From the NCBI GenBank assembly GCA_019326865.1, contig GCA_019326865.1_4101.1: a DNA stretch of 64,000 bases; one strand, written 5' to 3'. The stretch is from a phage. The notes beneath the pieces are model-generated. The model saw only the letters and a list, made by a program, of their open reading frames with translations, did no database searches and was not told where the DNA came from. Both the position numbers and the translations under genes were made by a program. Position 1 is the first letter of the stretch. Every line of letters starts with the position of its first letter. Of the stretch, positions 7,608 to 37,750 are shown in pieces.

Positions 7608-7620
7608 GGAGAATCAACGC

Positions 7621-9126: not shown

Positions 9127-9148
9127 TAACTAAAAGGATTTATTTAAA

Positions 9149-10129: not shown

Positions 10130-10130
10130 T

Positions 10131-10526: not shown

Positions 10527-10531
10527 AATAT

Positions 10532-10912
10532 ATGTTTCCTGTACCATCACATAACAGTACTGAATATCAAAATGATGTACTTTCCAAAGTTAGGGAAGTA
10601 CATGAATCAGATTCAGAAATAACAGACCGTATGCTTCTGATGTCAATTTTTGAAAATTTCAGAACTGGCGGTGGTTTACGTCTTAGCAAGTTTGGGTATG
10701 GAATTTGTAAAGAAAATAATCTTTATGAATTTACAAAAATCCCCTTGCAAAGAGAATTTAAAAGTTCTATAATGTTTACATCACTTGACAGAATATGTAC
10801 TTCACCTTATTATGTTGAAGGTCAGTACATATATCTGACAGATGCAATGATAATAACTGAATTAACATTGTGTTGTGATGATTTTAAACAATTATTTTCT
10901 ATTCATATGTAA
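10532..10912 (+). CDS. hypothetical protein
   Basis: ORF in operon. Confidence 0.4.
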   Translation: MFPVPSHNSTEYQNDVLSKVREVHESDSEITDRMLLMSIFENFRTGGGLRLSKFGYGICKENNLYEFTKIPLQREFKSSIMFTSLDRICTSPYYVEGQYIYLTDAMIITELTLCCDDFKQLFSIHM

Positions 10913-10924
10913 GAAAAATAAATG

Positions 10925-10952
10925 TTGACAAGATAGAATGATGTGATATAAT
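10925..10952 (+). promoter_or_regulatory. sigma70-type promoter P1 (TTGACA-N16-TGaTATAAT)
   Basis: Consensus -35 TTGACA at 10925-10930, extended -10 TGATATAAT at 10944-10952. Confidence 0.65.
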
Positions 10953-11017
10953 AAGCATCAGACATAAAGTTTTCAAGCGACACAAGATGTGAGTTTGAAA
11001 AAAATAAAAAAAAGTGA

Positions 11018-11045
11018 TTGACAAGTTGAAACGATGTGATATAAT
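11018..11045 (+). promoter_or_regulatory. sigma70-type promoter P2 (TTGACA-N16-TGaTATAAT), tandem copy of P1
   Basis: TTGACA at 11018-11023, TGATATAAT at 11037-11045; same gATGTGATATAAT core as P1. Confidence 0.65.
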
Positions 11046-11145
11046 GTTCACATCAAGGCAGCAAAGAGATTTACCTTTTTAAACACACGGATGATTCATG
11101 AAGTAATAAAGGAACTGATAAGTTAAATTATTTTAACACAGTTCC

Positions 11146-11174
11146 TTTACTTTTGCCCACGGATTGGCTATAAT
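11146..11174 (+). promoter_or_regulatory. promoter-like element P3 (TTTACT-N17-TATAAT)
   Basis: TATAAT at 11169-11174 with TTTACT 17 nt upstream; 42 nt before the AAA+ gene start. Confidence 0.4.
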
Positions 11175-11215
11175 AGAAACTTAAACGATTTTATCCAACA
11201 AAAGGAAATATATAC

Positions 11216-12541: not shown

Positions 12542-12560
12542 TTAACAAAGAGTGGTTGAC

Positions 12561-12596
12561 AAGAAGGATACGATATAGTATCCTTCTTTTATCTTA
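12561..12596 (+). terminator. intrinsic terminator (aagaaggata / tatccttctt stem + T-rich tail)
   Basis: 10-bp perfect inverted repeat with 8-nt loop right after AAA+ gene stop. Confidence 0.65.
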
Positions 12597-12615
12597 ACTA
12601 AACGAGGAAATATAC

Positions 12616-15059: not shown

Positions 15060-15653
15060 ATGACAAAGAATGAATTAGATGAAGCAATTAAAGGTTTATC
15101 TAATGTATGTTTTAGTGGCGGGGCAGCAGGTGCTGACCGCCTTTTTTCTATCTATGCAAAAAATAATGGATTTGAAGTTATTAATTTTTCATTCAAAGGT
15201 CATGTGCATAGTGTAGATGAAAGTACTATATTAGAAATACCACCCAATATTCTATCTGATATTTCTATATTAAATCAACTAAATATTGCATGTTACTCGT
15301 TACAGCGAAAAGTTCCAAAGCCTGGCTCCTATGTTTATAATTTACTTGCAAGGAATAGTTATCAGATACTTAATACAGAAAGAATATATTGTATTGCAAA
15401 TATCACATCACCAACTAAGGTAAGTGGTGGTACTGCATGGGCAGTACAGATGTATATGGATTCAGTTGAAAATCCTGAAATTTATTGTTATGATATGAAT
15501 TCACGTTCTGTGTTTTACTTCGACACAGTTCTGAAAGAGTTCAAACAATCATTAGTGGTTCCACCACCACATGGTAACTGGACTGGTATTGGTTCACGCA
15601 ATGCCACAGAAAAACATATGCAACATTTTATTACATTTTTCAAGGAAGTATAA
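15060..15653 (+). CDS. hypothetical protein with glycine-rich FSGGAAGADRLF motif
   Basis: ORF; motif reminiscent of Rossmann-type nucleotide-binding loops; stop overlaps thyA start (TAATG). Confidence 0.45.
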   Translation: MTKNELDEAIKGLSNVCFSGGAAGADRLFSIYAKNNGFEVINFSFKGHVHSVDESTILEIPPNILSDISILNQLNIACYSLQRKVPKPGSYVYNLLARNSYQILNTERIYCIANITSPTKVSGGTAWAVQMYMDSVENPEIYCYDMNSRSVFYFDTVLKEFKQSLVVPPPHGNWTGIGSRNATEKHMQHFITFFKEV

Positions 15654-16582
15654 TGAAACAACTACAAGAACTATATCAAAAAATTCTAGATGAAGGCGTA
15701 GAAAGCGTTGACCGTACTGGTGTTGGAACAATTAAACTTATTGGTCAACAAATGCGTTTTGACCTTAAAGATGGTTTCCCAGCCGTGACGACAAAACGTC
15801 TAGCTTGGAAAGCAATGACTTCAGAATTACTATGGTTTATTGAAGGTTCCCATGATGAACGTCGCCTTTGTGAAATTTTGCATGGAACTCGTGATACAAA
15901 AAAGAAAACTATTTGGACAGATAATTATCTAAATCAAGGTGTTGCTCTTGGTTATACTGATGGTGAGTTGGGTCCAGTGTATGGTAAGCAATGGCGTGAA
16001 TGGGAAGATTATAAATTTAGTTCCAGAACTGAAGAAATTCAAGAATTAAAAGATAAAGGATACAAAGTTATCGATTATACTGGTTCACATGGTGTTGTTA
16101 TGAAACGTACAACTGACCAATTACAGGAACTAATCAAAGGTATAAAGTCCGATCCATATGGTCGTCGCCACATTCTAAGTGCATGGAACGTTGGTGAGCT
16201 TGATGATATGACGTTACCACCTTGTCATAGCTTTGTGCAATTTTGTGTAGTACAAGGGAAACTAAGCTGCATTCTACATCAACGCTCCGCTGATCTTTTT
16301 TTGGGAGTTCCATTTAATATCAGTAGTTACTCACTACTAACTCATATGATTGCACAAATTACTGGTTTAGATGTTGGTGAATTTATTTGGAATGGTGGTG
16401 ATTGTCACATTTATAAAAACCACGTTGAACAAGTAAAAGAACAACTACTGCGAGAACCCCGTGAATTACCTGAATTGTGGCTTGATCCTACAATTACTAA
16501 TATTGAAGATTTCACAATGGATTCTTTCAAATTAGTGAATTACAACCCAATGCCAACAATTAAAGCACCGATGGCTGTATAA
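15653..16582 (+). CDS. thyA: thymidylate synthase (T4 td-like)
   Basis: Active-site LPPCH, DRTGVGT, ELLWF, RRHILSAWN, QRSADLFLGVPFNI, C-terminal PMAV; close to T4 td as recalled. Confidence 0.95.
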   Translation: MKQLQELYQKILDEGVESVDRTGVGTIKLIGQQMRFDLKDGFPAVTTKRLAWKAMTSELLWFIEGSHDERRLCEILHGTRDTKKKTIWTDNYLNQGVALGYTDGELGPVYGKQWREWEDYKFSSRTEEIQELKDKGYKVIDYTGSHGVVMKRTTDQLQELIKGIKSDPYGRRHILSAWNVGELDDMTLPPCHSFVQFCVVQGKLSCILHQRSADLFLGVPFNISSYSLLTHMIAQITGLDVGEFIWNGGDCHIYKNHVEQVKEQLLREPRELPELWLDPTITNIEDFTMDSFKLVNYNPMPTIKAPMAV

Positions 16583-16615: not shown

Positions 16616-18886
16616 TTATCTAATTGTTACCAATGTTCTTCCGTCGAAACGTACATCAGGAGTTGAAGGTATACTGAACACTACGTTAGTGCCGTTAAAC
16701 GTCACGCTATCGACCTCAACACGAGTATAGACCCCAGGACTAACCTGTTCCTGTATCTCTGCTGTGACGATGTTTGAGGCTGTTACAGTAAGGGTGTAGT
16801 AATTACCACTTAATACCCAAGATGAAATGGTAAATGCATCGGTTCTTACTGAACCTGAACCAATTGGAACCCATTGACCTTGAACTTTTTGCATTGAAGT
16901 ACGCTCGGTATTGGAGTATGCAATCATACCATCAACACCGACAGAGTTATCAATAGTAGCTAGTACTGGTAATTGAATACCATATCTATTGAAACGTGTT
17001 CTAATAGTTCCATTATCATAGATACTTACATCAGCATAATCACCCATTGAAAGTTTCAAATCTGAATCAACTAATTGCATTGTACTTTGATTAGTAGGGC
17101 TTTCTAACGTAATTATTCCATTTGCCAATAAGCTTAAGTTTTTAAATTTATTCGAAACACCATTAAATGTCGTATTAGCATTGAAAGTACTCGTGCCATT
17201 AACTACTATTGTGTTTTCTGCGGCTGCACCTAATATAGTATTACTTTGAACAATCAAATTACCACTTGTAGTAATATTAGTAGCTGTAGTATCACCATTT
17301 AATTTTGTATTAGCATTGAAAGTACTAGTACTATTAACTACTAATGTGTTTGTAGCGTTGTCACCTAATATAGTATCACTTTGAACATTCAAATTACCAC
17401 TTGCAGTAATATTAGTTGCTGTAGTATCACCATTTAATCTACTTGTACCATCAACTACAATATTACTATTAAATTTTGTATTAGCTTTAAAAGTACTAGT
17501 ACTATTAACTACTAACGTGTTTGCTGCGGTGTCACCTAATATTGTATTGCTTTGAACATTCAAATTACCACTTGCAGTAATGTTACTAGCTGAAGTATCA
17601 CCAATTAATCTACTTGTACCATCAACTACGATATTACCATGAAAATCGCTTTCACCGTTTTTAAATTCAACTTGTACTGAATACATAGAACTAAATGAAA
17701 TTATATTACTACTTGCACTTATACCAACATTAGTATTAGTTGGATTATCGAAGTGTAATATTGGAGTTAATGCTGGTGTTGTTGTTGTTTGATAGAGTGT
17801 TAGTGATGAGTTGTTAATTCTCACACGTTCATTTCCAGCAGTACTAAATCCAATAGCATCATCAGCAGGATGAAAAATACCAGTATTAGTATCAGACCAT
17901 TTATCAGGATCATTTCCAGGATTACTTGTTGGGTCGAATGGCTTATTATTAAATGCAATCGCTGGGGCAGAAGCACTCCCATATATAACACCAAAACGCC
18001 CAGACCCTATTGTACCGTCATCGTACATTGAATCGCCTGTTCTACGTAAACATTCAATTACAACATTATCTATGGAAGTTTGAACTGTACCAGCATTAGT
18101 TCTGAATTGGCGATTATTTGCAATCATAATAGTGTTATCATATAACACAGAAGCTGCTGAAATACTTGTTCTAGATTGGCGAAGGCGTATGTTTTTATCT
18201 TCAGTAATAATAATCCAGTCACCATCAGATAGTGCTGTTTGATTCATTGGTACACCGGAAGCAAACGGCTTAGTTAAATCATCATCAGTTACCAAATTAA
18301 CAAGTCCACTATGTCCCTCACTAGGGATAGAAGTTGAAATAATTCTCGCAAAAGCGTATGTTACTAGCTTTTCACCCGATATATTTGGGTTAGAATCAAC
18401 ATAATATAAAATTTCAACCCAATTCCCTTGCCCAGTTGGGTTGGTTGGAGTAAATGTAACAGGGCTTGTTTTTGGTTTATTCGCTTCAAAATGTGCTTGG
18501 GCGGCATCCATAATACCACGCACAACATAATAATCACCACTAAGTGATGATGATGGTGCAGGTAGTGGGCTTTGGGCTAACGGTGGGTCAATATCATCTG
18601 GAATTGGATTATATGTACCAACAAACTGTAAACCGCTAGTTACTGAGTCTGGTAATTGAGATGTGAGAAGTTTACCATTTGCATCTAAGTTAGCGAAACG
18701 CCTATATGCCATTGAACCATCTTCAAAATCCAGAACGCCCTCAAACGATTTCCATTCTTTATTGTATCTAATCATCCCTGATCTTATTACATCAGCGGTT
18801 TCTTTTGATGGTGCTTTTGGTAATTCTAAAAAAGATTTACTATCAATAATTACACCACCATCACCTCTAATTCGATTTATACTCAT
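16616..18886 (-). CDS. tail fibre protein with three tandem ~57-aa repeats
   Basis: 756-aa ORF; repeat NIVVDGTSRLxGDTxAxNITASGNLNVQSxTILGD...VVNSTSTFxANTK x3; S/T/N-rich. Confidence 0.65.
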   Translation of the reverse strand: MSINRIRGDGGVIIDSKSFLELPKAPSKETADVIRSGMIRYNKEWKSFEGVLDFEDGSMAYRRFANLDANGKLLTSQLPDSVTSGLQFVGTYNPIPDDIDPPLAQSPLPAPSSSLSGDYYVVRGIMDAAQAHFEANKPKTSPVTFTPTNPTGQGNWVEILYYVDSNPNISGEKLVTYAFARIISTSIPSEGHSGLVNLVTDDDLTKPFASGVPMNQTALSDGDWIIITEDKNIRLRQSRTSISAASVLYDNTIMIANNRQFRTNAGTVQTSIDNVVIECLRRTGDSMYDDGTIGSGRFGVIYGSASAPAIAFNNKPFDPTSNPGNDPDKWSDTNTGIFHPADDAIGFSTAGNERVRINNSSLTLYQTTTTPALTPILHFDNPTNTNVGISASSNIISFSSMYSVQVEFKNGESDFHGNIVVDGTSRLIGDTSASNITASGNLNVQSNTILGDTAANTLVVNSTSTFKANTKFNSNIVVDGTSRLNGDTTATNITASGNLNVQSDTILGDNATNTLVVNSTSTFNANTKLNGDTTATNITTSGNLIVQSNTILGAAAENTIVVNGTSTFNANTTFNGVSNKFKNLSLLANGIITLESPTNQSTMQLVDSDLKLSMGDYADVSIYDNGTIRTRFNRYGIQLPVLATIDNSVGVDGMIAYSNTERTSMQKVQGQWVPIGSGSVRTDAFTISSWVLSGNYYTLTVTASNIVTAEIQEQVSPGVYTRVEVDSVTFNGTNVVFSIPSTPDVRFDGRTLVTIR
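17150..17660 (-). repeat. in-frame tandem repeat (~171 bp x3) inside fibre gene
   Basis: Near-identical DNA units visible by eye; approximate boundaries. Confidence 0.6.
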
Positions 18887-18929
18887 TTAAATATTTCCTC
18901 AGAATAGATTATATATGATGTATTTATTT

Positions 18930-18965
18930 TAGATAAAAGAAAAGGCCAAGTATAAACTTGACCTT
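18930..18965 (-). terminator. intrinsic terminator for 18971..19750 (imperfect hairpin + T-run on minus strand)
   Basis: aaggccaag-tataaa-cttgacctt with one mismatch; minus-strand T-rich tail. Confidence 0.4.
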
Positions 18966-18970
18966 GAAAA

Positions 18971-19750
18971 TTATTTAGTACGTTCAGGTATATCAATATC
19001 TTCATATACCCAACTCGCAGCTTGTTGTGCTTTATAAATTGCGTTAGGGTCAGAATCATCAACTGCATCAATTGCTTCACATTGTTTATCACAATCAGAA
19101 AATAGTTTTTCAACCATTGCAAGTGATTCAGTATATAGTTGTGTCATTTCTTCCGCTGTTAGTTTTACTATAGCATCATCAAGAATAATAGTAACATTTT
19201 CAGCACCAGATACAACTTGTGTATAATAATTAAGAAGCATTTGGCGACCCGCAAGATCTGTATTATAACGATGTTCTTTGAATACATAACCAGCATTAAT
19301 TCGATTAGTACGTTCTGATAAAGTTCGTTCTTTCAAATCTTTTTTCACATCGGAAATTGGTACATCGACATAATTGTATGTTTTAAGTACAGTCAATGCT
19401 TTGTATTCACCAGTTGCATCTTCTAAAAATTCAACGACTGGTTGTTTTTCATCTTTTAATCTAATATATTCCAATGGTTGACCATTCTTGTTTATATTGC
19501 CTACATTTTTATACTCTAACCACCAAAAACCTTCTTCTTTTCTCACCTCATCATTTGGTTCCACTGGAGAACCATCATAACTGGAAATACCATACAAAGT
19601 TCTAATATCGCTATAAAGATAACGATAGGTCTGTGAATCATCTGGAATTGCACCAGGGCGTTCTTTAAGACCTTTAACACCGATTGGGTTTGAGATGATA
19701 CTACCCAATTCATAGTTTTCCTTTGAATTACCTTTCACATATGTGAACAT
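18971..19750 (-). CDS. hypothetical protein (between fibre genes)
   Basis: ORF. Confidence 0.5.
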   Translation of the reverse strand: MFTYVKGNSKENYELGSIISNPIGVKGLKERPGAIPDDSQTYRYLYSDIRTLYGISSYDGSPVEPNDEVRKEEGFWWLEYKNVGNINKNGQPLEYIRLKDEKQPVVEFLEDATGEYKALTVLKTYNYVDVPISDVKKDLKERTLSERTNRINAGYVFKEHRYNTDLAGRQMLLNYYTQVVSGAENVTIILDDAIVKLTAEEMTQLYTESLAMVEKLFSDCDKQCEAIDAVDDSDPNAIYKAQQAASWVYEDIDIPERTK

Positions 19751-19815
19751 ATAACTACCTCACTTGTTACGATGGTGTCACCCAAGTAAGGTGACACCTT
19801 TTATTTTAATTATTA

Positions 19816-22800
19816 TTAAGCAGTACGTTGAGCAATAAACATATCTGCTACTGAACTTACACCATCATAAATTACCTGATAGATAGTTACAGAGTTTGCA
19901 GTTTTGTTAAGTGTTCCATCAACTACAGCATATGTACCATCGGTAGTAAAGTTTCTATTACCAGTTGCATCTTGTTTAACATAAATGTATACTGACGATG
20001 CTTTACCACCACCAATTAGACCAGTAATAGGTGCTAGTGTTGTATCTTGATCAAGTGTGATAAAGTATACGTTGCTAGTCCCGTCAGGTGTCCAAGTACC
20101 AGATGGTGCAATAACAGAAGAAGTTACTTGATTTGGGATAACATCATATTTTTTGGTAGTTACTTTTGTCGTAGTGAAGTCTGCGTTGGTTGTAGATAAA
20201 TGTCCTGTTACAGTTACACCTTTGTCAAATACCGCATTTTCTTTGAAAGAAGATGTTGCATTAACAGTTAATGTATCAGAATCAGCATCACCTAACACAA
20301 CACTGCCATTTGCTGTCATTAAACCAGTAACAGTTAGCGTACCACCGATTGTTGCTTCACCAATTACAGATGCACTAGCAAGTGTAGCTGCACTAGATGT
20401 TGTAATAGTGGTAACAGTAGCGTCTTCAAGTGTGATGTTTGATGCTGTTAATTTACCATCAACCGTTAGGCTACCAGTAACATTTGCACCCGCTGACATG
20501 GTTACTGCTCCACCAAATGAACCTGTGGTAGTAACTTCAAGTGTATTACCTTTAAGTAATTTAGTTGCAGTTATATTTTCACCAGCAGTAATACTAGTAC
20601 CAGCAGCAACACCATTGGTTGCAGTTAGGGATTTAACGGATACATCAGAGTTTGATTGGTTAAGTGTAGCGTTTAGAGTGCCTGTTACAGTGAAGTCACC
20701 GTTGTTAACTACGTTACCGTTGATTGTTAAGTTATTATTTTTAGAACCAACATCACCGATGGTTGCAGATTTAGAAATCAATTCTGCACCAGATGTAATG
20801 TTACCTGCGGCACTAATGGTGTTAGCTGCATTAACTGCATAAGGTTCAATAGTTTGTCCACTAACATCGATATCAGCATTAATACCACCATCTACACGCA
20901 AAGAACCAGCAATGTAAGTGTTAGGGAAAATTTGAACAGTTTCTGTGTGTTCACCAACCTGTGTACCAATAATAACATTTGATCCAGTTTTTACTAAACC
21001 TTCAGATGTTATTGCACCCACAGTTGTTGTACCAGTAACGTCTAGTCTGCCACCAACTGTAGCGTTATTAGTTACTTTTAACGCAACATCTTCACCATTG
21101 ATAGTCATTGATGGTACAGATGCGTTTCCAGTAACATCTAGTGTTCCACCAATAGTTGCATTACCATCAGAATGTAAAGTTTTTGTAACAGAAAGACTGT
21201 TTGCAATTACATCCGCACCAGTCAAATCCAATGCACCTGGTGTTAATGTACCAGTAATGTTAACATTATTATCAAAGGTTGCTGCACCAGTAACATCTAG
21301 GGTAGAGCTAAATGTACCAGAAGTTGCAGAGATTGCACCAGATTCAAGTGAACCAACAGTGGTTTTTCCAGTTACACCTAGTGTACCGCCAACTGTTCCA
21401 TTTGTTGTAACTTCTAGTGTTCCAGTACTTAGATCTTTTGCTGTCACTTTGCCAGATGCGTTAATGGTTGTTGTTGTAACACCACCACTTAGAGTGCTTG
21501 CCCCAGTAACACTGAGTGTTTTTGCTGCACTAACGCTGTTTACAGTAAGATCAGCACCTGATAGGTCTAATCCACCTTCAGGAATAAAATTACCCTTAAC
21601 TGTTAGCTGTTGAACAGTACTGTCACCAGTGACATCTAGTGTAGAAGCAGTTAGACCACCATTCAGACTTGTTTCCCCAGTAACATCTAGTGTAGTTGTT
21701 ACAGTTGCACTGTTAAGAGTGGAGATACCGGAAATATTAGCACTTTGTGCAGTGATTGAGCCTTTATCAACTTGTACATCACCAGAAACAACTTTAATAC
21801 CACCAGCACTAACTGTTAGTTTTTCAGCAGTGTTCAAAGTACTTGAAATTGTTGTTGCACCAGTTAAGGTTGTAGTTCCAGCTACACTCATGTTTCCAGA
21901 GATAGATGGATTGCCTGTAATGTCACCAGTAGTGAGAACCAATTCAGTACCTACAGTAGTAGAACCAGTACTTTCTAATGTTACACCGACAATATTTGCA
22001 GATTTAAGGTCAATGGAGCCATCAACAGTCAAGTTGCCATGTACTGTTGCATCACCGAGTGAATTTAATGATTTCACAGAAACATCAGTTTTACTAAGGT
22101 CAATTACACCAGCAGTAAGTGTTCCAGATACTGCCAAATCACCAGTAATTGCTGTATTTTTCGTAATAGATACAGTTTCTGTTCCTGACGTAATTGAGCC
22201 AACAGTAAGTACACCACCAATGGTTGCATTGTTAGTTACAGTTAACGCTGTTTCTTCACCAGATAGTGTTAAAGAAATACCATTCATTTCACCAGTAATA
22301 TTTGCAGATGCCGCAGATATATCGCCAGCAACTACCGCATTTGTTGCGTTTAGAGTTGTTGTAGCAATTTCAGTACTTTTCACTTTAGGAAGTGCGTTGA
22401 TACCATCTTTACTATTAACTGTAATAATACCAGAACTTGTTAGAGATTTAACAGAAACATCTGCACCACTTAAGTTTACTGTTCCAGAAACAACTAGATC
22501 GCCACCAATATTAGCACCTTCTGTTGTAGTGATTGATTTTGCATTAACTTCAGTTTGGCTCAAATCAATTGTACCAGGTGATACAGTTCCAGAAACAGTA
22601 AGATTACCAGTAATGGTGGTATCATTAGAAATAGATACACCATCATCATTGCTAATTGTTGGGGTTTCAATAGTAACAGCTTTAACTTTACCTGAAGAAG
22701 TCATATCAGCAACAGTTGATGTACCAGTAACCTTTAGATTAGTAATATTTGCAGTAGTTGAACCAAGTGTAGTAATCGTACCATCAGTACTTTCTAGTTT

Positions 22801-25317
22801 AGGAAGAACACTGGCAATAGAAGATTCATTACTAACAATTGCACCAGTACTGGTTAGCGATTTTGCAGTTACATCAGCATTAGTAAGATCAACAGTTCCA
22901 TTAACGGTTAGATCTCCCCCGACTGTTGCACCAGCAGTAGTAGTAATTGAATTAGCATTAACATCTGCTTTAGTTAGATCGATTGAACCTGGAGTGATAG
23001 AGCCACTTACTGTTAGATCGCCAGTTACTTTTGTATTATTAGCAATTGTAATTCCATTTTCATTGGAAATATTAGGAGTCACCAATGAAGGTGTAGTAGT
23101 TTCGCCAGATACAGTTAATGTTGTACCAACTAATACACTTGAGCTTGTGTAAACACTTGATAGATTAGATGGTCCAGTTACGTGAAGTTCATCTGCATTA
23201 GCAGTTGTTACAGTTGCAGTTGTACTTTTAAGTACTGGTAGTACGTTTTCGGACACACTATCATTACTTTTAATAACACCAGAAGTAGTAAGTGATTTAA
23301 CATTAAGTTCGGCTTCTGATAAATCAAAAGAACCTTTAACTACTAGGTCACCACCAACTGTTGCACCAGCAGTAGTAGTAATTGAATTAGCATTAAGGTC
23401 GGCAGCACTTAAATCTAGTGAACCAACAGTTAAGCTACCAGTGATATCAACATTTTCTGTAAAGTTTGTATTACCACTAATAGTTGGGGCAGTTAAACTC
23501 GTTGCAGTGATATTAGTACCTTTGATTGTTTCACCACTTAATGTACCACTAGCAGTGATAGTTGGTGCGGTAACTTCGGTAGATGCACTAATTGTTGGTG
23601 CGGAAACCGAAGTTGTACCAGTAATAACACCAGAACTTACTGAACCAGCGGATAATGCACCAGAAAGAGTTGCAGTTGTTCCAGTAATATCACCAGTAAC
23701 AGTTAGTGCTCCACCAACAGTAGTATCACCTGTACTTTCCAAAGTTGCACCTTTGACATGTTCGGCTGCCACAACTGATTTTGGTGTTAAATCTTGTCCA
23801 CTAACGTCAACGGTTAAACCAGTTACTTTACCAGTGAAATCAACATCATTAAGAATTGCCTTACCACCAACTTGTAGGAATGGTGTACTTGGGTCTTGTG
23901 TTTCGTTACCTGTAATTGTTAGATAATCTAATTTGTTTAGACCATTACCAGTAATACCATATGTTGATAGTGATGCATTGCCAAATGTTGCAGTTTTAAG
24001 AACTTTCAATGTAGCTGGAGAAACCAACTCAGATTGAACTTCATTCGGTAAAATAACAGTTGGTCGTTGTTCTGGTGTAGTATATGCAAAACCGAGTTTA
24101 ACCGCTGGGTCTTGACTATTTTTACCTAAACTGATAGATTTGAAAGTTGCAGTACCGTTTAAACCAGTAATATTAGAACCTAGTGTAACACCACCCACCA
24201 ATGAAGTAGTTCCTGATACATTCAATGTGGTTGCATTAATATCATCCAACTGGAATTCGCCACCAAGAAGACCAGAAACATTAATGTTATTAAAATTAGC
24301 TGTGCCAGTACTTTCAATATTTGGGATAGTTGCAGTACCAGTAACTTCAAAATCAGCAACTTTAGTTTTACCTTTTTTTACTTCTAGAAGTGGTGTGTCT
24401 GGTGATTGAGTATCGTTACCAGAAACAGTTAGATAATCTAATTTGTTTAGACCATTACCAGTAATGCCATAGGTTGGCAATGATGCATTACCAAATGTTG
24501 CAGATGTCAAAACAGTCAATTTTGCTGGTGACATTAGTTCAGATTGAATTTCGTTTTGTAGAATTACAGTAGGACGCTTATCAGGAGCACTATAAGGGAA
24601 ACTTAGTCTAAAGGTTTGTGATTCAGAGTTAGATCCAATACGTATGTCTTTAAATGTAGCAGTGCTATTAATACCAGTTACATTAGCACCAAAAGTTACA
24701 GAACCTTTTTGGTTAGATGCACCAGTAACGTTCAATGTTTCAGCATTCAAATCAGAAAGATTAAACTCACCGCCCAGTGTACCATTAATGTTTACATCGT
24801 TGAATTCAGCAGTACCAGTACTAGTAATATCAGTTGCAGACACAGTTGTGATTTCTGCGGAATTAGCAGTAATTTTATCAAAAGCAGCAGTTGTGCCAAC
24901 ATCAGCAGTTAAGTTACCTTTAAGTGTTGTTACTCCATCAACTTCTAAGCTTTTTACTTTAGTTTCTTGTAGTGCTGTTGAACCCGCAGTTTGTGTCAAA
25001 TTACCACCAACTGACATAGTACCGTTGAATGTAGCATTTGCATTGATTGTTGCTGTATCAGAATCACCATCTGCACTACCGATAGTAGTGTTACCTTTAA
25101 CATCAAGACCACCACTTAATGTTGCTTTTCCAGCAACATCTAATGTGGATGTAATATTGGCAGTTTCGGTTTCAATGGCAGTAAAAGTTGCATTTGTGAA
25201 AGATATACTCCCATTTACAGTTAGGTTATTCTTGAATACAGCATTCCCTTTGACTAAAAGATCCTTACCAACCGTACCAGTACCAGTAATATCCAAGTCA
25301 GTTTTTATTGAGTACAT
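19816..25317 (-). CDS. giant fibrous tail fibre/adhesin protein (1833 aa, T/S/G/N-rich, internally duplicated)
   Basis: Low-complexity beta-rich composition; ~170-aa segment duplicated near N-terminus. Confidence 0.65.
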   Translation of the reverse strand: MYSIKTDLDITGTGTVGKDLLVKGNAVFKNNLTVNGSISFTNATFTAIETETANITSTLDVAGKATLSGGLDVKGNTTIGSADGDSDTATINANATFNGTMSVGGNLTQTAGSTALQETKVKSLEVDGVTTLKGNLTADVGTTAAFDKITANSAEITTVSATDITSTGTAEFNDVNINGTLGGEFNLSDLNAETLNVTGASNQKGSVTFGANVTGINSTATFKDIRIGSNSESQTFRLSFPYSAPDKRPTVILQNEIQSELMSPAKLTVLTSATFGNASLPTYGITGNGLNKLDYLTVSGNDTQSPDTPLLEVKKGKTKVADFEVTGTATIPNIESTGTANFNNINVSGLLGGEFQLDDINATTLNVSGTTSLVGGVTLGSNITGLNGTATFKSISLGKNSQDPAVKLGFAYTTPEQRPTVILPNEVQSELVSPATLKVLKTATFGNASLSTYGITGNGLNKLDYLTITGNETQDPSTPFLQVGGKAILNDVDFTGKVTGLTVDVSGQDLTPKSVVAAEHVKGATLESTGDTTVGGALTVTGDITGTTATLSGALSAGSVSSGVITGTTSVSAPTISASTEVTAPTITASGTLSGETIKGTNITATSLTAPTISGNTNFTENVDITGSLTVGSLDLSAADLNANSITTTAGATVGGDLVVKGSFDLSEAELNVKSLTTSGVIKSNDSVSENVLPVLKSTTATVTTANADELHVTGPSNLSSVYTSSSVLVGTTLTVSGETTTPSLVTPNISNENGITIANNTKVTGDLTVSGSITPGSIDLTKADVNANSITTTAGATVGGDLTVNGTVDLTNADVTAKSLTSTGAIVSNESSIASVLPKLESTDGTITTLGSTTANITNLKVTGTSTVADMTSSGKVKAVTIETPTISNDDGVSISNDTTITGNLTVSGTVSPGTIDLSQTEVNAKSITTTEGANIGGDLVVSGTVNLSGADVSVKSLTSSGIITVNSKDGINALPKVKSTEIATTTLNATNAVVAGDISAASANITGEMNGISLTLSGEETALTVTNNATIGGVLTVGSITSGTETVSITKNTAITGDLAVSGTLTAGVIDLSKTDVSVKSLNSLGDATVHGNLTVDGSIDLKSANIVGVTLESTGSTTVGTELVLTTGDITGNPSISGNMSVAGTTTLTGATTISSTLNTAEKLTVSAGGIKVVSGDVQVDKGSITAQSANISGISTLNSATVTTTLDVTGETSLNGGLTASTLDVTGDSTVQQLTVKGNFIPEGGLDLSGADLTVNSVSAAKTLSVTGASTLSGGVTTTTINASGKVTAKDLSTGTLEVTTNGTVGGTLGVTGKTTVGSLESGAISATSGTFSSTLDVTGAATFDNNVNITGTLTPGALDLTGADVIANSLSVTKTLHSDGNATIGGTLDVTGNASVPSMTINGEDVALKVTNNATVGGRLDVTGTTTVGAITSEGLVKTGSNVIIGTQVGEHTETVQIFPNTYIAGSLRVDGGINADIDVSGQTIEPYAVNAANTISAAGNITSGAELISKSATIGDVGSKNNNLTINGNVVNNGDFTVTGTLNATLNQSNSDVSVKSLTATNGVAAGTSITAGENITATKLLKGNTLEVTTTGSFGGAVTMSAGANVTGSLTVDGKLTASNITLEDATVTTITTSSAATLASASVIGEATIGGTLTVTGLMTANGSVVLGDADSDTLTVNATSSFKENAVFDKGVTVTGHLSTTNADFTTTKVTTKKYDVIPNQVTSSVIAPSGTWTPDGTSNVYFITLDQDTTLAPITGLIGGGKASSVYIYVKQDATGNRNFTTDGTYAVVDGTLNKTANSVTIYQVIYDGVSSVADMFIAQRTA
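23890..24910 (-). repeat. tandem duplication (~510 bp x2) within giant fibre gene
   Basis: e.g. agataatctaatttgtttagaccattaccagtaat at ~23921 and ~24431; approximate boundaries. Confidence 0.6.
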
Positions 25318-25389
25318 TTATACCCTCCATTATAACCTTGTTAATATGTATATATTTAGTTTTATTCGTTTGTTAACTAATAATTTGTC

Positions 25390-25431
25390 AAAATAAAAAA
25401 CTGGGCTTATTTAGAATAAGCCCAGTTTCAT
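25390..25431 (-). terminator. intrinsic terminator (ctgggcttat / ataagcccag hairpin, A/T runs)
   Basis: 10-bp stem; on minus strand followed by T-run; downstream of 25435..26334 stop. Confidence 0.6.
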
Positions 25432-25434
25432 TTT

Positions 25435-26334
25435 TCACTTACCAGAGATAACAATCTTCCCGCTGAATGTAACATCAGAAGTAAAGATCACATCACCAGC
25501 ATTGCTAATTTGTGTACCTGTTATCACCAATTCAAATGGTGATGACGAAACACTACCAGGTATCTTATTTGCATAAATCGAAACATACAAATTTTCTGGT
25601 GATTGTTTATGTTCAGATGCTGGAATTGTGATGGTGAACTCATCTTTATTAGAAATCCAATCAGCTTGGTTTACCAATTTACTATAAGGTGCTGTCATTG
25701 TTGTTGCTCCTATAATGTTTACTATAACATTTTCATAATCCGTAATTTTTCCAATTACATCGATTGTAATATCACCAGTACCGCTTACTACTACAGAGGT
25801 TTGAAATACGGAATCCAATGTTATACTACCAGGAGGATCACCCTGTAGTTGTACCATGATATCAGGCCCACGCCCATGTACAGATGCTGGAAGGGTGTAT
25901 GTGTAATGGTCGGTAGTATCTGAAACTAATGTAAATGAAGATACTGGTATAGTTTCAGTTGTTACATATGGACTATCAGTTTCATGTGAACTACCTTTGA
26001 ATGATTTCCAAATACCAAGATCTTTAATATAAATTTGAAGAACATTAGTTTCATCAACTAAAAAATACACATCACCATCTAACCCAATAGTTTCATCCGG
26101 TGCACTGGTTCCACGCAAAATACCAGAACTCCCACCACCACTATATGCGTTTAGATATCCTAACGTAACCAGGTGTGTGTTAGCGGTCGGTTCACCTGCT
26201 GAAATTGGAAGAAGTTTTGTTCCTGAGTAGTTTTGTATTTGCACAACACTACCATTTGTGGTAATCTGTGCACCATTCTTCCCAAGAATGAAGGACTTCT
26301 TCATGGTTCCTTCTAAATTAGAAAAAACTGCCAT
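25435..26334 (-). CDS. tail fibre/tailspike protein with shared N-terminal anchor domain
   Basis: N-terminus MAVFSNLEGTMK...ILGKNGA homologous to next gene; divergent C-terminus. Confidence 0.6.
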   Translation of the reverse strand: MAVFSNLEGTMKKSFILGKNGAQITTNGSVVQIQNYSGTKLLPISAGEPTANTHLVTLGYLNAYSGGGSSGILRGTSAPDETIGLDGDVYFLVDETNVLQIYIKDLGIWKSFKGSSHETDSPYVTTETIPVSSFTLVSDTTDHYTYTLPASVHGRGPDIMVQLQGDPPGSITLDSVFQTSVVVSGTGDITIDVIGKITDYENVIVNIIGATTMTAPYSKLVNQADWISNKDEFTITIPASEHKQSPENLYVSIYANKIPGSVSSSPFELVITGTQISNAGDVIFTSDVTFSGKIVISGK

Positions 26335-26350
26335 TTTAATTTAATCTCCT

Positions 26351-28492
26351 TTATGGTAGGGTTATGTACGTTACTGGTTGGGCGGCTTTTAATGATGCAC
26401 CAGCGGCAGTTGCTGTTATGATGGGATCTGCAATATCAATTCTATATACGTTATTAACAACATATACTGCACGAGTTATATACGTTTTCAAATCATCACC
26501 ATTTTCTCCAGCACCAGATATGATGATCTCAGTTCCCGCCGCTTTTGCATATTGGTTATCACCCCATGACACACCCAATGCTTCTATGTACGTTTGTCCT
26601 ACTACCGTTTGTCTAATTGTGTCATATTTTCCAAAAAATGAACCACCCACTGTTACAATATATTTTCCACCTGATTTTTTATGTATAATCGTTCCTTCTG
26701 GGAAGTATCTTCCACCAGGGAAAGTATCATATGGAATATAATATTGTTCAACTACAGGTATTAGTACTGGGCCACGATGACCAGTACCGTCAATAGCAGT
26801 TGTTACTTTAAAATTATTAGATGATTGGTCGATTCTATCTACATACATTTTAGAAAAACTATATTTTGAAACATTACAATCATCTTGAACAACACAGTTA
26901 GTCCAATTAGTATAAGTATATTTAGAGCGAGTATACATTCCCCCACCCTCACCTTCAGTGGAAAGGTGTTGTCCTATTACATCTAATTCTTTTGTTCTGA
27001 TATCACTAAACTTAGATGAAGATGGTAGACCACGCCAAAGAATTTTAGAACAAGTGATATTACTTAATTCTGTACTATTCAGCCAATTATCAGAACCAGA
27101 AGTATAAACGAATACGGAAGACTCTGGTATATAGAGATTGGAAATTTTAAAGTTTCTAGGTGGTCCAGCAAATCGACCAGCAGTTACCCCCCAGTTAATA
27201 GATACCATACGGTTTGTGATTGTAGGATCATTAAGTAAATGTCCGGTTAAACCATCAATTACAAACTCTTTTGAGCCATAAGTTATCACACCAGCAGTTG
27301 TTAATCCTGTACCAACAGAAATTAAAGATGATGGGTACACCTCATTGTCAAGTATTTTGAAATCCATCCCCAATTCGACATGGATGCATTGTCTAACATT
27401 ATAAAGTCTATTATTCTTAATAACAAAGTTTCTAACATATTGAGTATCAGGGGCATCCAAATCATAAGGACCAGAACCAGCTACACCGATACCAATACCC
27501 CAGTTTGAAAGCGGGATTGGTGCATCAGAGCCATCAACATTTTCAATTATATTACCTTCGATCACAAAACCATCAGGATAATGTGAGTTAATAACGTTCA
27601 ATTCAATTGCATCCCCGTAGATATCATGAATGTGGTTATATGAATAACGACCAACTTTCATTTTCTCACCAGTACCCTGTTGGAGAACGCCATATTTGCA
27701 TTTAGTCATTTCATTAAAGCAAAAATCAATTGTACCTGGTTGAGTCATACCTTGCATCAAAAACGCAGCAGTACTGGTAATGTTTATAAATTTATTAAAA
27801 TAAAATTTACCATCCCCACCAAAGAATTTCAAATAACATCCAGTAAGTGTGGTGAATTGAATTTGTGAATTAATAACGGATATCATAGTACCACCATTAC
27901 CAGTAATAGTGCCACCAAACCAAGTTACATCTTCCAAATATACTGCTTTTTTGATACGATAATTACCACCTGCTTGAATTTGTATTTTATTTTCTTTGGC
28001 ATAAGTTGCACACAAATTTACAGCTTCAGTGTCATCGGTTTCCCCATCTCCTTTCGCACCAAATTCTTCTGGTGTTATATAGAACTGTGCTTGTTGAACT
28101 GTGCCACCAGTAATAAGGCCAATGAAATCACCACCATTTTTACTTGATAGTACTTTTTTATTAATGTATAGTGATTTAATCCATGTGCCATTTGTTTTTA
28201 CGAAAATATCAACAATACCATCTTCATCAATTTGAAAATAAGTGTTATTGTTTTTTCCAATATCGCCAGACGGTGGTTGAACGCCAAATAAGGCATTTGG
28301 ATTATCTTCAAGGTATCTAACATTAACTGCTGAATCTTGGTCTGATGGTGTTCCTATCTTTAGTGGTAGGAACTTTTCACCGAGATAATCTTTTATCGAT
28401 ACGGAATCATTGACGAAATTTATCGAAGCACCATTTTTACCCAATATCATTTTTGGTTTCATGGTTCCTTCAAAATTAGAAAATACTGCCAT
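26351..28492 (-). CDS. tailspike protein with pectate-lyase-like beta-helix (putative depolymerase)
   Basis: Motif EEFGAKGDGETDDTEAVN typical of pectate_lyase_3-type tailspike domains; shared N-terminal anchor with 25435..26334. Confidence 0.7.
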   Translation of the reverse strand: MAVFSNFEGTMKPKMILGKNGASINFVNDSVSIKDYLGEKFLPLKIGTPSDQDSAVNVRYLEDNPNALFGVQPPSGDIGKNNNTYFQIDEDGIVDIFVKTNGTWIKSLYINKKVLSSKNGGDFIGLITGGTVQQAQFYITPEEFGAKGDGETDDTEAVNLCATYAKENKIQIQAGGNYRIKKAVYLEDVTWFGGTITGNGGTMISVINSQIQFTTLTGCYLKFFGGDGKFYFNKFINITSTAAFLMQGMTQPGTIDFCFNEMTKCKYGVLQQGTGEKMKVGRYSYNHIHDIYGDAIELNVINSHYPDGFVIEGNIIENVDGSDAPIPLSNWGIGIGVAGSGPYDLDAPDTQYVRNFVIKNNRLYNVRQCIHVELGMDFKILDNEVYPSSLISVGTGLTTAGVITYGSKEFVIDGLTGHLLNDPTITNRMVSINWGVTAGRFAGPPRNFKISNLYIPESSVFVYTSGSDNWLNSTELSNITCSKILWRGLPSSSKFSDIRTKELDVIGQHLSTEGEGGGMYTRSKYTYTNWTNCVVQDDCNVSKYSFSKMYVDRIDQSSNNFKVTTAIDGTGHRGPVLIPVVEQYYIPYDTFPGGRYFPEGTIIHKKSGGKYIVTVGGSFFGKYDTIRQTVVGQTYIEALGVSWGDNQYAKAAGTEIIISGAGENGDDLKTYITRAVYVVNNVYRIDIADPIITATAAGASLKAAQPVTYITLP

Positions 28493-28504
28493 TGTGACAC
28501 CCCC

Positions 28505-29632
28505 TTAAATATTATCTTGAATAGGTTGGACCGGAGCTTGCCACGAAAGAGTACAAATAATTTCCATTTTACCATAAGGACTGTTATTTACTGAATCATT
28601 GAATACACATGAAATAATTTCATCTACATCTGAAACTTCATGATTTGTTTCATTAACGATAAAACGCATCTGGTGATTAATATCAAAGTAGGATGTTGGT
28701 GCAATGACTGTACCACCAATATTTTCGTTGGCTTCACCACCAAAACGAACAAACATATCGGTCACAGGAAGGGAGTAAGGTTGAAGAATATTTACATCAA
28801 TATTTGAAACCACATAACCCGCCGGACAAGTTCCTATAACTAATAGTGCGTTTGTCCATGAACGGTCAATAATATTTCTTATAGAAATTGTATCTTTACC
28901 TGGTGCACCCGGTTCACCTTGCTTACCTTGAATACCTTGTGGACCTTCTTTACCACGGAATAAAATACCACTACTCCATTCTTTTGATGGTGGGGTGGTA
29001 GTTGTTACTTCATCCACATAATAAAGCTTACCATCAGTGTTGTTATAGAAACAATAATCAATTGGGAGGTTTTCAATACTTGGAAATTGATCACCACTAC
29101 CATCAATATGAAAACGACCACGTGGACCTTGCTCACCACGGAAAGGAATACCATCACTCCATGTAGCTGTTACTTTTTGATAAAAATATAGTTTACCATC
29201 TTGTGTATTGTAAAATGTATAGTTATCAAAAAGACCAGAACTTGGAAAAGTAGTCCCTGCACTATCGATATGAAAAGGCTTACCAGCTTCACCAGTATCA
29301 CCTTTACCAAATTCTACACTAATCCATGTACTGGTTTGTTCTTGTGCATCATTTGATTTAAAATACAAAGTACTTGTGTTATTTGCCAAACTAAGGTAGC
29401 ACCAACCAAGTTGTTCACCAACTTTAAATTTGTCAGATGGTACTTCAAAACCAATCTCATTTGGATAAAAGTTCTTACCATTCTCACCATTCTGTCCGAC
29501 CACAAGACCCAAATCTTGAATTGTATTATCTGTATAGGTTACAATTAAATGACCAGCAGCATTAATAACTAGACTTTTGATGCCGGAGTTATTACATGAA
29601 CCACTGGACCCATTGTTAAATGTAATTGTCAT
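28505..29632 (-). CDS. tail fibre protein with collagen-like Gly-X-Y repeats
   Basis: GKEGPQGIQGKQGEPGAPGKD and GEQGPRGRF; duplicated DGKLY(F/Y)...FRG motif. Confidence 0.65.
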   Translation of the reverse strand: MTITFNNGSSGSCNNSGIKSLVINAAGHLIVTYTDNTIQDLGLVVGQNGENGKNFYPNEIGFEVPSDKFKVGEQLGWCYLSLANNTSTLYFKSNDAQEQTSTWISVEFGKGDTGEAGKPFHIDSAGTTFPSSGLFDNYTFYNTQDGKLYFYQKVTATWSDGIPFRGEQGPRGRFHIDGSGDQFPSIENLPIDYCFYNNTDGKLYYVDEVTTTTPPSKEWSSGILFRGKEGPQGIQGKQGEPGAPGKDTISIRNIIDRSWTNALLVIGTCPAGYVVSNIDVNILQPYSLPVTDMFVRFGGEANENIGGTVIAPTSYFDINHQMRFIVNETNHEVSDVDEIISCVFNDSVNNSPYGKMEIICTLSWQAPVQPIQDNI

Positions 29633-37725: not shown

Positions 37726-37750
37726 ATGCTCTCCTTTTTTATTATTTAAC
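37726..37750. terminator. bidirectional intrinsic terminator (ggagagca-caa-tgctctcc)
   Basis: 8-bp perfect stem flanked by A-run and T-run between convergent genes. Confidence 0.75.

What the first reader, a model, noticed from the sequence alone, without database searches (positions are those of the whole stretch)
16616..29632. Five consecutive receptor-binding-type genes with swapped C-termini, depolymerase and collagen-like modules
Seen in sequence: adjacent minus-strand genes encode (i) a fibre with three tandem 57-aa repeats, (ii) an 1833-aa T/S/G-rich fibre with a ~170-aa duplication, (iii and iv) two proteins sharing a conserved N-terminus (MAVFSN-EGTMK…ILGKNGA, roughly 110 aa) but different C-termini, one carrying the GAKGDGETDDTEA pectate-lyase-like motif, and (v) a fibre with Gly-X-Y collagen-like repeats. 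Inference: a multivalent adsorption apparatus built by module shuffling, implying a broad or polysaccharide-dependent host range.
Basis: partly seen in the sequence, partly recalled or inferred. Interest (0 to 1): 0.55.

Follow-up and report, generated by a model that had tools for sequence, protein, structure and literature searches.

The report
Jumbo coliphage tail-fibre and colanidase gene block
This is the already-annotated tail-fibre/tailspike gene block of a 121Q-like (Asteriusvirus) jumbo phage of E. coli: only one of its six genes is a clear product of module swapping, so it is an ordinary member of a known kind of host-attachment apparatus.

Summary
The window is an Asteriusvirus (121Q/PBECO4/phAPEC6-like) jumbo coliphage. 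16616-29632 is 95.4% identical to phage UE-S1 and orthologous to 121Q gp569-574.

The sequence observations mostly hold, with two corrections:
- The block holds six genes, not five. A 259-aa DUF4376 tail-fibre-chaperone gene was missed.
- The "three 57-aa repeats" are two 57-aa copies plus one 45-aa copy.

What the genes are:
- **713-aa protein:** the only demonstrable chimera. A ~95-aa adaptor specific to the Rak2-like clade is fused to a colanidase body that is 57% identical to phi92 gp150 (PDB 6E0V).
- **299-aa, 375-aa and 756-aa proteins:** conserved along their length in Rak2-like phages of Klebsiella, Pectobacterium and other hosts. They look like core virion parts, not swappable receptor binders.
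- **375-aa protein:** has short Gly-X-Y linkers and a jelly-roll head.
- **299-aa protein:** has Ig-like domains and no enzyme fold.
- **1833-aa protein:** a long repetitive fibre whose tip is shared with rV5-like fibres. It is paired with the chaperone gene.

Terminator-like hairpins suggest three transcription units.

Relatives are reported to have narrow host ranges, so the "broad host range" inference is not supported. Verdict: known locus, low interest.

The parts
28505..29632 (-). g375: conserved 375-aa virion protein. Small beta domains are separated by four short Gly-X-Y linkers (aa 46-54, 111-119, 166-174, 227-247), followed by a C-terminal jelly-roll domain (aa ~249-365). Orthologue of 121Q gp574, RaK2 ORF062w, CBB_228 and phAPEC6 gp253.
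28208..28492 (-). N-terminal adaptor (aa 1-95) of g713. It is a paralogue of the g299 N-terminus and begins with the conserved peptide MAVFSNFEGTMK.
26351..28207 (-). Colanidase (colanic-acid depolymerase) body of g713, aa 96-713. It contains the GAKGDGETDDTEA motif.
   Evidence: PDB 6e0v (phi92 gp150), E 5e-236 over aa 101-712. 57% identity to the Paula/phi92-type colanidase from aa 96 to the end. phrog_6117, E 2.7e-259. WcaM similarity, E 1e-25.
25435..26334 (-). g299: 299-aa conserved virion protein, made of an adaptor (aa 1-109, nt 26008-26334) plus two Ig-like beta-sandwich domains. Orthologue of 121Q gp572 and CBB_227. RaK2 ORF061w is the adaptor alone (115 aa).
25397..25429 (-). Terminator-like hairpin (15-bp stem followed by a T run) after g299. 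It would end the g375-g713-g299 unit.
   Evidence: A terminator is annotated at the same place in UE-S1. Gene gaps inside the unit are 12 and 16 nt.
19816..25317 (-). g1833: long T/S/G-rich repetitive fibre. It has a 168-aa duplication (nt 24328-24831 and 23821-24321) and a C-terminal tip domain (aa ~1716-1833, nt 19819-20172). Orthologue of 121Q gp571, phAPEC6 gp256 and CBB_226.
   Evidence: phrog_4549 tail fibre, E 4e-222. C-terminus homologous to the 793-aa fibre of phage phiTE, PDB 9cuy_g, E 1.3e-28. The tip is shared with 341 phage records, mostly Vequintavirinae. MS in phAPEC6 and CBB.
18971..19750 (-). g259: DUF4376 protein, the predicted tail-fibre chaperone or cap for g1833.
   Evidence: PF14301, 34.7 bits against a cut-off of 25. 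DUF4376 proteins are the tail-fibre chaperones of Alteromonas phages V22/A5 and the putative chaperones of Campylobacter phages. The orthologue CBB_225 is in virions at 68.5% coverage.
18942..18965 (-). Terminator-like hairpin after g259. It would end the g1833-g259 unit.
   Evidence: A terminator is annotated at the same place in UE-S1.
16616..18886 (-). g756: virion protein with a conserved N-terminal part (aa 1-~400), a repeat shaft of variable copy number (nt 17158-17644: 57 + 57 + 45 aa) and a highly conserved C-terminal domain (aa ~620-756). Orthologue of 121Q gp569 (654 aa), RaK2 ORF060w (510 aa) and CBB_224.
   Evidence: phrog_14293. The shaft resembles the g1833 repeats. MS in CBB: 22 peptides.

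Best explanation
This is the distal tail / host-attachment gene block of an Asteriusvirus jumbo myophage. It lies next to the baseplate and tail-completion genes and appears organised as three transcription units.

**Unit 1 (g375-g713-g299)**
- g375 is a conserved, probably trimeric, beaded protein with short collagen-like linkers and a jelly-roll head.
- g713 and g299 carry paralogous ~100-aa N-terminal adaptors. I infer that these adaptors dock both proteins to the same kind of site on the virion.
- g713 is a colanidase tailspike that cuts through the colanic-acid slime of E. coli.
- g299 carries two Ig-like domains, with at most a binding or scaffolding role.

**Unit 2 (g1833-g259)**
- g1833 is a very long repetitive fibre with a Vequintavirinae-type tip domain.
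- g259 is its DUF4376 chaperone, which probably stays on the virion.

**Unit 3 (g756)**
- g756 has conserved ends and a shaft whose length changes between isolates by gain or loss of ~57-aa repeats.

**Evolution**
The ancestral five-gene set (g375, g299, g1833, g259, g756) is shared with Mimasvirus and Eneladusvirus relatives. Asteriusviruses added one tailspike by fusing a diverged copy of the g299 adaptor to a colanidase body that circulates among unrelated coliphages.

**Shown:** homologies, synteny, virion presence in relatives, chimeric junction.
**Inferred:** docking role of the adaptor, order of events at the cell surface, the receptor of the long fibre.
For: **Identity of the locus**
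- 95.4% to UE-S1 and ~85% to 121Q and others over the whole 13 kb.
- Gene-for-gene match to 121Q gp569-574.
- Neighbours are a gp15-like tail completion protein, a baseplate wedge and a hub-lysozyme.

**Chimera**
- g713 aa 101-712 match phi92 gp150 (6e0v), E 5e-236.
- Homology to an 804-aa phi92-type colanidase starts at g713 aa 96 / target aa 189. The N-termini are unrelated.
- The adaptor is found only in Rak2-like phages: two copies in Asteriusvirus, one elsewhere.
- The colanidase body is found in 256 phage records of several families.
- CBB has the same gene order without the colanidase.
- phi92 gp150 is reported to hydrolyse the beta-1,4 Glc-Fuc bond of colanic acid (PMC13450770).

**Core nature of g299, g375 and g756:**

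**Virion presence:**

**Chaperone:**

**Units:** minus-strand hairpins at 25429-25397 and 18965-18942, with 12- and 16-nt gaps within unit 1.

**Host-interaction signature**
- Against 121Q the flanking genes are 94-99% identical.
- g259 is 79%, g1833 83%, g299 84% and g756 88%.

**Locus plasticity in relatives:**
Against: - No experiment on this phage.
- In the phAPEC6 proteome only the g1833 and g375 orthologues were detected. The colanidase, g299, g259 and g756 orthologues were not.
- JP4 carries a colanidase cut down to 201 aa, so the enzyme is dispensable at least on some hosts.
- The top fold matches of the g375 head are capsid cement proteins. A decoration role is therefore not excluded.
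- Terminator and promoter scans are consensus matches only.
Confidence: 0.8

Rival explanations
1. All five proteins are alternative receptor-binding proteins of a multivalent apparatus assembled by C-terminal module swapping, and this gives a broad or polysaccharide-dependent host range.
For: - One true chimera with a depolymerase.
- g1833, g259, g299 and g756 diverge faster than the flanks.
- The locus gains and loses genes between isolates.
- The related genus Alcyoneusvirus does build branched multi-depolymerase fibres (PMC10253068).
Against: - g299, g375 and both ends of g756 are conserved across phages of different host genera.
- There is only one enzymatic domain. The g299 and g375 models show Ig-like and jelly-roll folds only.
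- One of the six genes is a chaperone.
- Relatives are reported as narrow in host range.
Confidence: 0.15
2. g1833 is not a baseplate long tail fibre. Instead it is the ~120-nm 'hair/whisker' seen along the tail (and capsid) of phAPEC6 and CBB, used to entangle flagella or other surface structures. The short baseplate fibres would then be g375 or g756.
For: - EM of CBB and phAPEC6 shows only six short baseplate fibres (28.6 nm in CBB) plus long hairs (119 nm in CBB).
- Both phages encode and package the g1833 orthologue.
- RaK2 lacks it.
- Scaling from the phiTE LTF (793 aa, predicted 512 A) gives ~118 nm for 1833 aa (my inference).
- The Asteriusvirus SHEFM2K is cited as flagellotrophic.
- fENko-Kae01 needs the flagellum. 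Its long fibre is ~99% identical to that of Salmonella phages 7t3/Munch, which carry the same adaptor family.
Against: - No localisation data.
- GAP32 has the orthologue, but hairs were not reported for it.
- The tip domain is shared with hundreds of rV5-like phages, so the phiTE match says nothing specific about flagella.
- I could not read the SHEFM2K paper.
Confidence: 0.2
3. g375 and g299 are decoration proteins of the capsid or tail surface rather than parts of the adsorption apparatus.
For: - The g299 C-terminal half is Ig-like, as in many decoration proteins.
- phAPEC6 has trimeric appendages on the capsid.
Against: - g299 shares its adaptor with a tailspike that must reach the cell surface.
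- The genes sit in one tight unit with the colanidase, beside baseplate and tail-completion genes.
Confidence: 0.1

Closest known systems
Orthologous locus of published Rak2-like jumbo phages: 121Q gp569-574, phAPEC6 gp253-258, UE-S1_518-523, CBB_224-228
   Same: - Same genes in the same order and orientation, between thymidylate synthase and the gp15-like tail completion gene. Identity is 79-99% to Asteriusvirus members.
- Already annotated there as tail fibre, colanic acid degradation and structural proteins.
- Virion presence shown by MS.
   Different: - Three copies of the g756 repeat here, against one in 121Q and SHEFM2K.
- CBB lacks the colanidase gene.
- RaK2 keeps only g375, a 115-aa adaptor-only gene and a repeat-less g756 orthologue.
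Phage phi92 gp150 colanidase tailspike (PDB 6E0V/6E0W) and the colanidase tailspikes of Justusliebigvirus, Vequintavirinae and small coliphages
   Same: The catalytic body is homologous from aa 96 to the C-terminus, at 57% identity.
   Different: The N-terminus differs completely: ~95-aa Rak2-clade adaptor here, ~190 unrelated residues in the phi92 type.
Branched multi-tailspike apparatus of Klebsiella phages RaK2/phiK64-1, phiKp24 and of CBA120 (TSP1-4)
   Same: - Same principle: conserved N-terminal assembly domains carry different distal modules.
- Related phage lineage (PMC10253068).
   Different: - Here there is only one depolymerase, and only two proteins share an adaptor.
Tail fibre plus DUF4376 chaperone pairs (Alteromonas phage V22 gp26/gp27, A5 gp8/gp9; Campylobacter phage F341)
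   Same: A fibre gene is followed directly by a gene with a C-terminal DUF4376 domain.
   Different: - The fibre here is five times longer.
- Chaperone function is untested.
- The CBB orthologue is abundant in virions.
Long tail fibre of flagellotropic myophage phiTE (PDB 9CUY chain g) and rV5-type fibres
   Same: Repetitive T/G/V-rich beta-helical body and a homologous ~115-aa C-terminal tip.
   Different: - 1833 aa against 793 aa.
- No recognisable N-terminal helical bundle, since the repeats start at residue ~3.
- In rV5 the next gene is not a DUF4376 gene.

Membership tests
Asteriusvirus / Rak2-like tail-fibre locus (121Q gp569-574) | Nucleotide identity and gene-for-gene synteny with the annotated locus | tested here: met
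   95.4% to UE-S1, ~85% to 121Q and 13 other genomes over at least 93% of the 13 kb. Same gene order.
Colanidase tailspike (phi92 gp150 type) | Sequence homology over the whole catalytic body to the solved enzyme | tested here: met
   6e0v_A, E 5.4e-236, query aa 101-712. phrog_6117, E 2.7e-259.
Colanidase tailspike (phi92 gp150 type) | Hydrolysis of colanic acid | not testable with these tools
   Activity is reported for phi92 gp150 only (PMC13450770).
Colanidase tailspike (phi92 gp150 type) | Same N-terminal virion-attachment region | tested here: not met
   Homology starts at aa 96 of g713 and aa 189 of the Paula/phi92-type protein. The adaptor has no match in Justusliebigvirus records.
Pectate-lyase-like beta helix (Pfam PF12708) | Score above the Pfam gathering threshold | tested here: not met
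   19.8 bits against a cut-off of 27, aa 143-251. The motif is real, but the family call is sub-threshold.
Collagen triple-helix repeat (Pfam PF01391) | Score above the gathering threshold; long uninterrupted Gly-X-Y run | tested here: not met
   17.3 bits against a cut-off of 27.2. The longest run is 7 triplets, plus three runs of 3. The runs are non-random: 0 of 5000 shuffles reached 7.
DUF4376 tail-fibre chaperone | PF14301 domain above threshold, in a gene directly downstream of a fibre gene | tested here: met
   34.7 bits against a cut-off of 25, aa 135-233. The gene starts 65 nt after the g1833 stop, with a hairpin terminator after it.
DUF4376 tail-fibre chaperone | Required for folding or function of the cognate fibre | not testable with these tools
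   Known for Alteromonas V22/A5.
T4 gp34-type 'long tail fiber proximal subunit' (the annotation carried by relatives) | Detectable homology to T4 gp34 | tested here: not met
   No Pfam or NCBIfam family. The only PDB sequence match at E<=1 is phiTE 9cuy_g.
Branched RBP systems (CBA120 TSP / RaK2 gp526-534) | T4 gp10-like branching (XD) domains or TSP head domains in the N-terminal region | tested here: inconclusive
Flagellotropic phage fibre | Dependence of adsorption on the flagellum; fibre binding to the filament | not testable with these tools
   Only literature on relatives. The tip homology to phiTE is shared with many non-flagellotropic rV5-like phages.

The most novel reading that the evidence does not exclude
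Two linked readings are not excluded by my evidence.

First, the 1833-aa fibre with its DUF4376 cap may be the unexplained ~120-nm 'hairy whisker' of phAPEC6/CBB-type jumbo phages. It would then serve flagellum- or surface-entangling primary adsorption rather than acting as a baseplate long fibre.

Second, the duplicated adaptor, with its invariant N-terminal 12-mer MAVFSNxEGTMK, may be a plug-in docking peptide that lets these phages add tailspikes to a conserved g375 short fibre.
Probability: 0.2. Interest if true: 0.5.

Novelty: already known. Interest (0 to 1): 0.2.

Why it matters
The practical value is limited. It corrects annotations that circulate for this locus:
- "long tail fiber proximal subunit" has no T4 gp34 homology behind it.
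- "colanic acid biosynthesis protein" is really a colanidase tailspike.
- The DUF4376 gene is a likely fibre chaperone.

It also gives a clean, dated-by-synteny example of how a jumbo phage acquired a depolymerase: an existing virion adaptor was duplicated and fused to a widely shared enzyme body. That junction (about aa 95) is a rational site for engineering new tailspikes onto Asteriusvirus particles.

It does not open a new biological question. The still-unknown identity of the "hairs" of these phages is the only open point it touches.

Tried and rejected
- **Recent recombination between the two adaptors: rejected.** DNA is 33/35 identical in the first 35 nt, then 46%.
- **Mis-assembled repeat: rejected.** Both genes are intact and present in more than 30 genomes.
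- **g756.** No PDB relative by single sequence or by a 15-sequence profile. Only a sub-threshold bactofilin-like match in the repeats.
- **Same Ig-like domain in the g756 C-terminus and g299?** hhalign probability 19%, E 0.0012, so inconclusive.
- **phiTE homology as evidence of flagellotropism: rejected as specific evidence.** The tip domain occurs in 341 records, mostly rV5-like phages.
- **Co-transfer of the tip with a DUF4376 gene.** Not seen in rV5, where the next gene is a 1878-aa protein.
- **The SHEFM2K 'flagellotrophic' paper could not be read**. It is known only through citation.
- **NCBIfam** gave nothing except the WcaM similarity for g713.
Full report
**What the window is**

The 13-kb region 16616-29632 matches Escherichia phage UE-S1 at 95.4% over its full length. 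It matches ph0011, slurp01, 121Q, phAPEC6, SHEFM2K, G17, Sharanji and others at 84-89%. All are Asteriusvirus, the 121Q/PBECO4 group of ~350-kb 'Rak2-like' jumbo myophages.

The six minus-strand genes correspond one-to-one to 121Q gp569-574. In 121Q these are annotated as structural protein, virion structural protein, tail fiber protein, virion structural protein, colanic acid degradation and tail protein. The same order is found in UE-S1, ph0011, ELP-22 and SHEFM2K.

Flanks:
- On one side: thymidylate synthase and a DprA-like gene.
- On the other: three divergent structural genes, a NUDIX gene, a T4 gp15-like tail completion protein, a 3331-aa virion protein, the baseplate wedge and the hub-lysozyme.

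**Check of the observation**

The gene coordinates are exact.

*756-aa protein.* It has two 57-aa copies and a third copy of 45 aa. TRF reports period 171 nt x 2.1 and period 135 nt x 2.1 within 17158-17644, and protein alignments agree.

*1833-aa protein.*
- It is 40% Thr+Ser+Gly.
- It carries a ~168-aa duplication, aa 163-330 vs 333-499, at 53-65% identity.
- It is built from weaker ~100-140-aa repeats from residue ~3 to ~1700.

*299- and 713-aa proteins.*
- They share 109 N-terminal residues at 40% identity, E 6e-21.
- These are the only two copies in the window.
- At DNA level the first 35 nt are 33/35 identical and the rest 46%. So there is neither recent recombination nor an assembly artefact.

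*375-aa protein.*
- It has Gly-X-Y runs of 3, 3, 3 and 7 triplets.
- A 7-run never appeared in 5000 shuffles.
- The Pfam Collagen score is below threshold.

It has a DUF4376 domain above the Pfam threshold. The block therefore holds six genes, and the five are not consecutive.

**The 713-aa protein is a real chimera**
- Residues 101-712 align to the solved colanidase tailspike gp150 of phage phi92 (PDB 6e0v), E 5.4e-236.
- Against a full-length 804-aa phi92-type colanidase (phage Paula), identity is 57% from g713 aa 96 / target aa 189 to the C-terminus. The N-termini do not align.
- The central part also resembles host WcaM, E 1e-25. This explains the 'colanic acid biosynthesis' annotations.
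- The colanidase body occurs in 256 phage records from several families: Justusliebigvirus, Vequintavirinae and ~40-kb coliphages.
- The ~100-aa adaptor occurs only in Rak2-like jumbo phages, twice per genome in Asteriusvirus and once elsewhere.
- Pectobacterium phage CBB has the gene order g375-g299-g1833-DUF4376-g756 with no colanidase.
- RaK2 has g375, a 115-aa adaptor-only gene and a shorter g756 orthologue.

The simplest history is that the 299-aa gene is ancestral, and that Asteriusviruses gained a tailspike by joining a copy of its adaptor to a circulating colanidase body. The duplication is old or fast-evolving. The g299 adaptor is 60% identical to the RaK2 adaptor but only 40% to the g713 adaptor.

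phi92 gp150 is reported to hydrolyse the beta-1,4 Glc-Fuc bond of colanic acid (PMC13450770).

**The other proteins are not swappable receptor binders**

*g299 family.*
- It is conserved over its full length (286-300 aa, 40-100% identity) in phages of Escherichia, Salmonella, Yersinia, Erwinia and Cronobacter.
- Its AF2 model (pLDDT 81.6) shows the adaptor followed by two beta-sandwich domains.

*g375 family.*
- It is likewise conserved: 68% identity to RaK2 and 56% to CBB.
- Its model (pLDDT 79.5) is a string of small beta domains joined by low-confidence segments. These segments coincide with the Gly-X-Y runs.

*g756.*
- It keeps its N-terminal ~400 aa and its C-terminal ~140 aa across the group, including RaK2.
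- What varies is the number of shaft repeats: none in RaK2 (510 aa), one in 121Q, SHEFM2K and ELP-22 (654 aa), three here and in UE-S1.
- More distant relatives range from 491 to 1101 aa.
- The shaft repeats resemble those of g1833.

**The long fibre and its chaperone**
- g1833 belongs to phrog_4549, tail fibre.
- Its C-terminal region is homologous to the 793-aa fibre of the flagellotropic myophage phiTE (PDB 9cuy chain g), E 1.3e-28, with a well-aligned ~115-aa tip.
- From the paper's description (extended beta helix, 512 A), I infer that this chain is the phiTE long tail fibre.
- The same tip occurs in 341 phage records, mostly rV5-like phages. It therefore says nothing specific about the receptor.
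- The 'long tail fiber proximal subunit' label of relatives has no support. No T4 gp34 match was found in Pfam, NCBIfam or the PDB.
- The downstream DUF4376 gene matches the class of tail-fibre chaperones shown in Alteromonas phages V22/A5 and proposed in Campylobacter phages.

**Operon structure**

Gaps of 12 and 16 nt join g375, g713 and g299. A 15-bp-stem hairpin with a T run follows g299 (25429-25397). Another hairpin follows g259 (18965-18942). Terminators are annotated at the same places in UE-S1. This gives three units: g375-g713-g299, g1833-g259, and g756. These are pattern matches, not transcript data.

**Virion evidence from relatives**

In CBB all five orthologues were detected by mass spectrometry:

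| CBB protein | Window orthologue | Peptides |
|---|---|---|
| CBB_224 | g756 | 22 |
| CBB_225 | g259 | 16 |
| CBB_226 | g1833 | 10 |
| CBB_227 | g299 | 5 |
| CBB_228 | g375 | 13 |

In phAPEC6, gp256 (180 kDa, the g1833 orthologue) and gp253 (41 kDa, the g375 orthologue) were detected. The other four were not.

**Signs of host interaction**
- Against 121Q the flanking genes are 94-99% identical at protein level. g259, g1833, g299 and g756 are 79-88%.
- The locus is plastic in relatives:
  - ELP-22 has an extra 578-aa gene.
  - vB_Ec-M-J has three long-fibre paralogues and a split colanidase.
  - JP4 has the colanidase reduced to 201 aa.
- Relatives are described as narrow in host range: Sharanji, and JP4 at 3 of 68 isolates.

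**How it most likely works (inference)**
1. The long fibre, folded with the help of g259, makes first contact.
2. The colanidase tailspike clears colanic acid.
3. The two adaptor-bearing proteins are mounted through their N-terminal domains on a common conserved partner, possibly g375 or the baseplate periphery.

The extreme N-terminal 12-mer MAVFSN(L/F)EGTMK has three notable properties:
- It is the best-conserved part of both paralogues.
- It is disordered in the monomer model.
- It resembles in concept the docking peptide of secondary RBPs in Klebsiella podophages.

The receptor of the fibre is unknown. It is also reported for fENko-Kae01. The long fibre of fENko-Kae01 is ~99% identical to that of Salmonella phages 7t3/Munch, which carry the same adaptor family.

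**An open point**

EM of CBB and phAPEC6 shows only short baseplate fibres (~29 nm) plus unexplained ~120-nm hairs on the tail. By length scaling g1833 would be ~118 nm, and a g375 trimer roughly 25-30 nm. These are my estimates. The long fibre could therefore be the 'hair'. This is untested, and I give it about 0.2.

**Verdict**

This is a known, already-annotated locus of a published phage genus. The principle, conserved N-terminal adaptors carrying different distal modules, is well established in phi92, CBA120 and RaK2/phiK64-1. Interest is low.

Noticed in passing
window 20153-25396, + strand: Five long antisense ORFs (229, 222, 507, 161 and 250 aa) lie inside the 1833-aa fibre gene. They are stop-free by-products of its T/S/G/V-rich repetitive coding sequence and are very unlikely to be genes.
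   Followed up: partly
window 51765-52253 (-) and 52290-54953 (-): A 162-aa ORF is a stand-alone copy of the C-terminal lysozyme domain (profile positions 727-885) of the adjacent 887-aa baseplate hub / tail lysozyme.
   Followed up: no
window 37742-47737 (-): A 3331-aa virion structural protein (phrog_10938, full-length match). The phAPEC6 proteome also lists a protein of ~382 kDa (gp245). I did not check whether the two are orthologous.
   Followed up: no
L002 (UE-S1) 1413-2966 vs window 15653-16582: The thymidylate synthase gene of the closest relative UE-S1 is 1554 nt, against 930 nt here and in 121Q. UE-S1 therefore carries an insertion (fusion, intein or intron-like element) that this window lacks.
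   Followed up: no
protein P0134 (metagenome contig, 270 aa): A natural chimera: the N-terminal 112 aa of the g375 family (73% identity) fused to a DUF4376 domain. In some relatives the chaperone-type domain is therefore carried directly on the g375 attachment domain.
   Followed up: partly
L008 (JP4) 5001-5606; L005 (vB_Ec-M-J) 1-13747; L006 (ELP-22) 3553-5289: Locus plasticity among Asteriusviruses. JP4 has the colanidase cut to 201 aa. vB_Ec-M-J has the colanidase split in two ORFs and three long-fibre paralogues. ELP-22 has an extra 578-aa 'tail needle knob' gene.
   Followed up: partly
window 26300-26334 and 28458-28492 (-): The first 35 nt of the two adaptor genes are 33/35 identical while the rest is 46% identical. 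The encoded 12-mer MAVFSNxEGTMK is invariant or near-invariant in 47 family members and has pLDDT <50 in the monomer model. It is a possible docking peptide.
   Followed up: partly
window 16616-18886 (-), aa ~320-365: The motif around GIFHPADDAIGFSTAGNERVRINN recurs, often many times per protein, in dozens of very large (up to 3397 aa) unrelated-length proteins of the representative library. It seems to be a widespread fibre repeat element.
   Followed up: no
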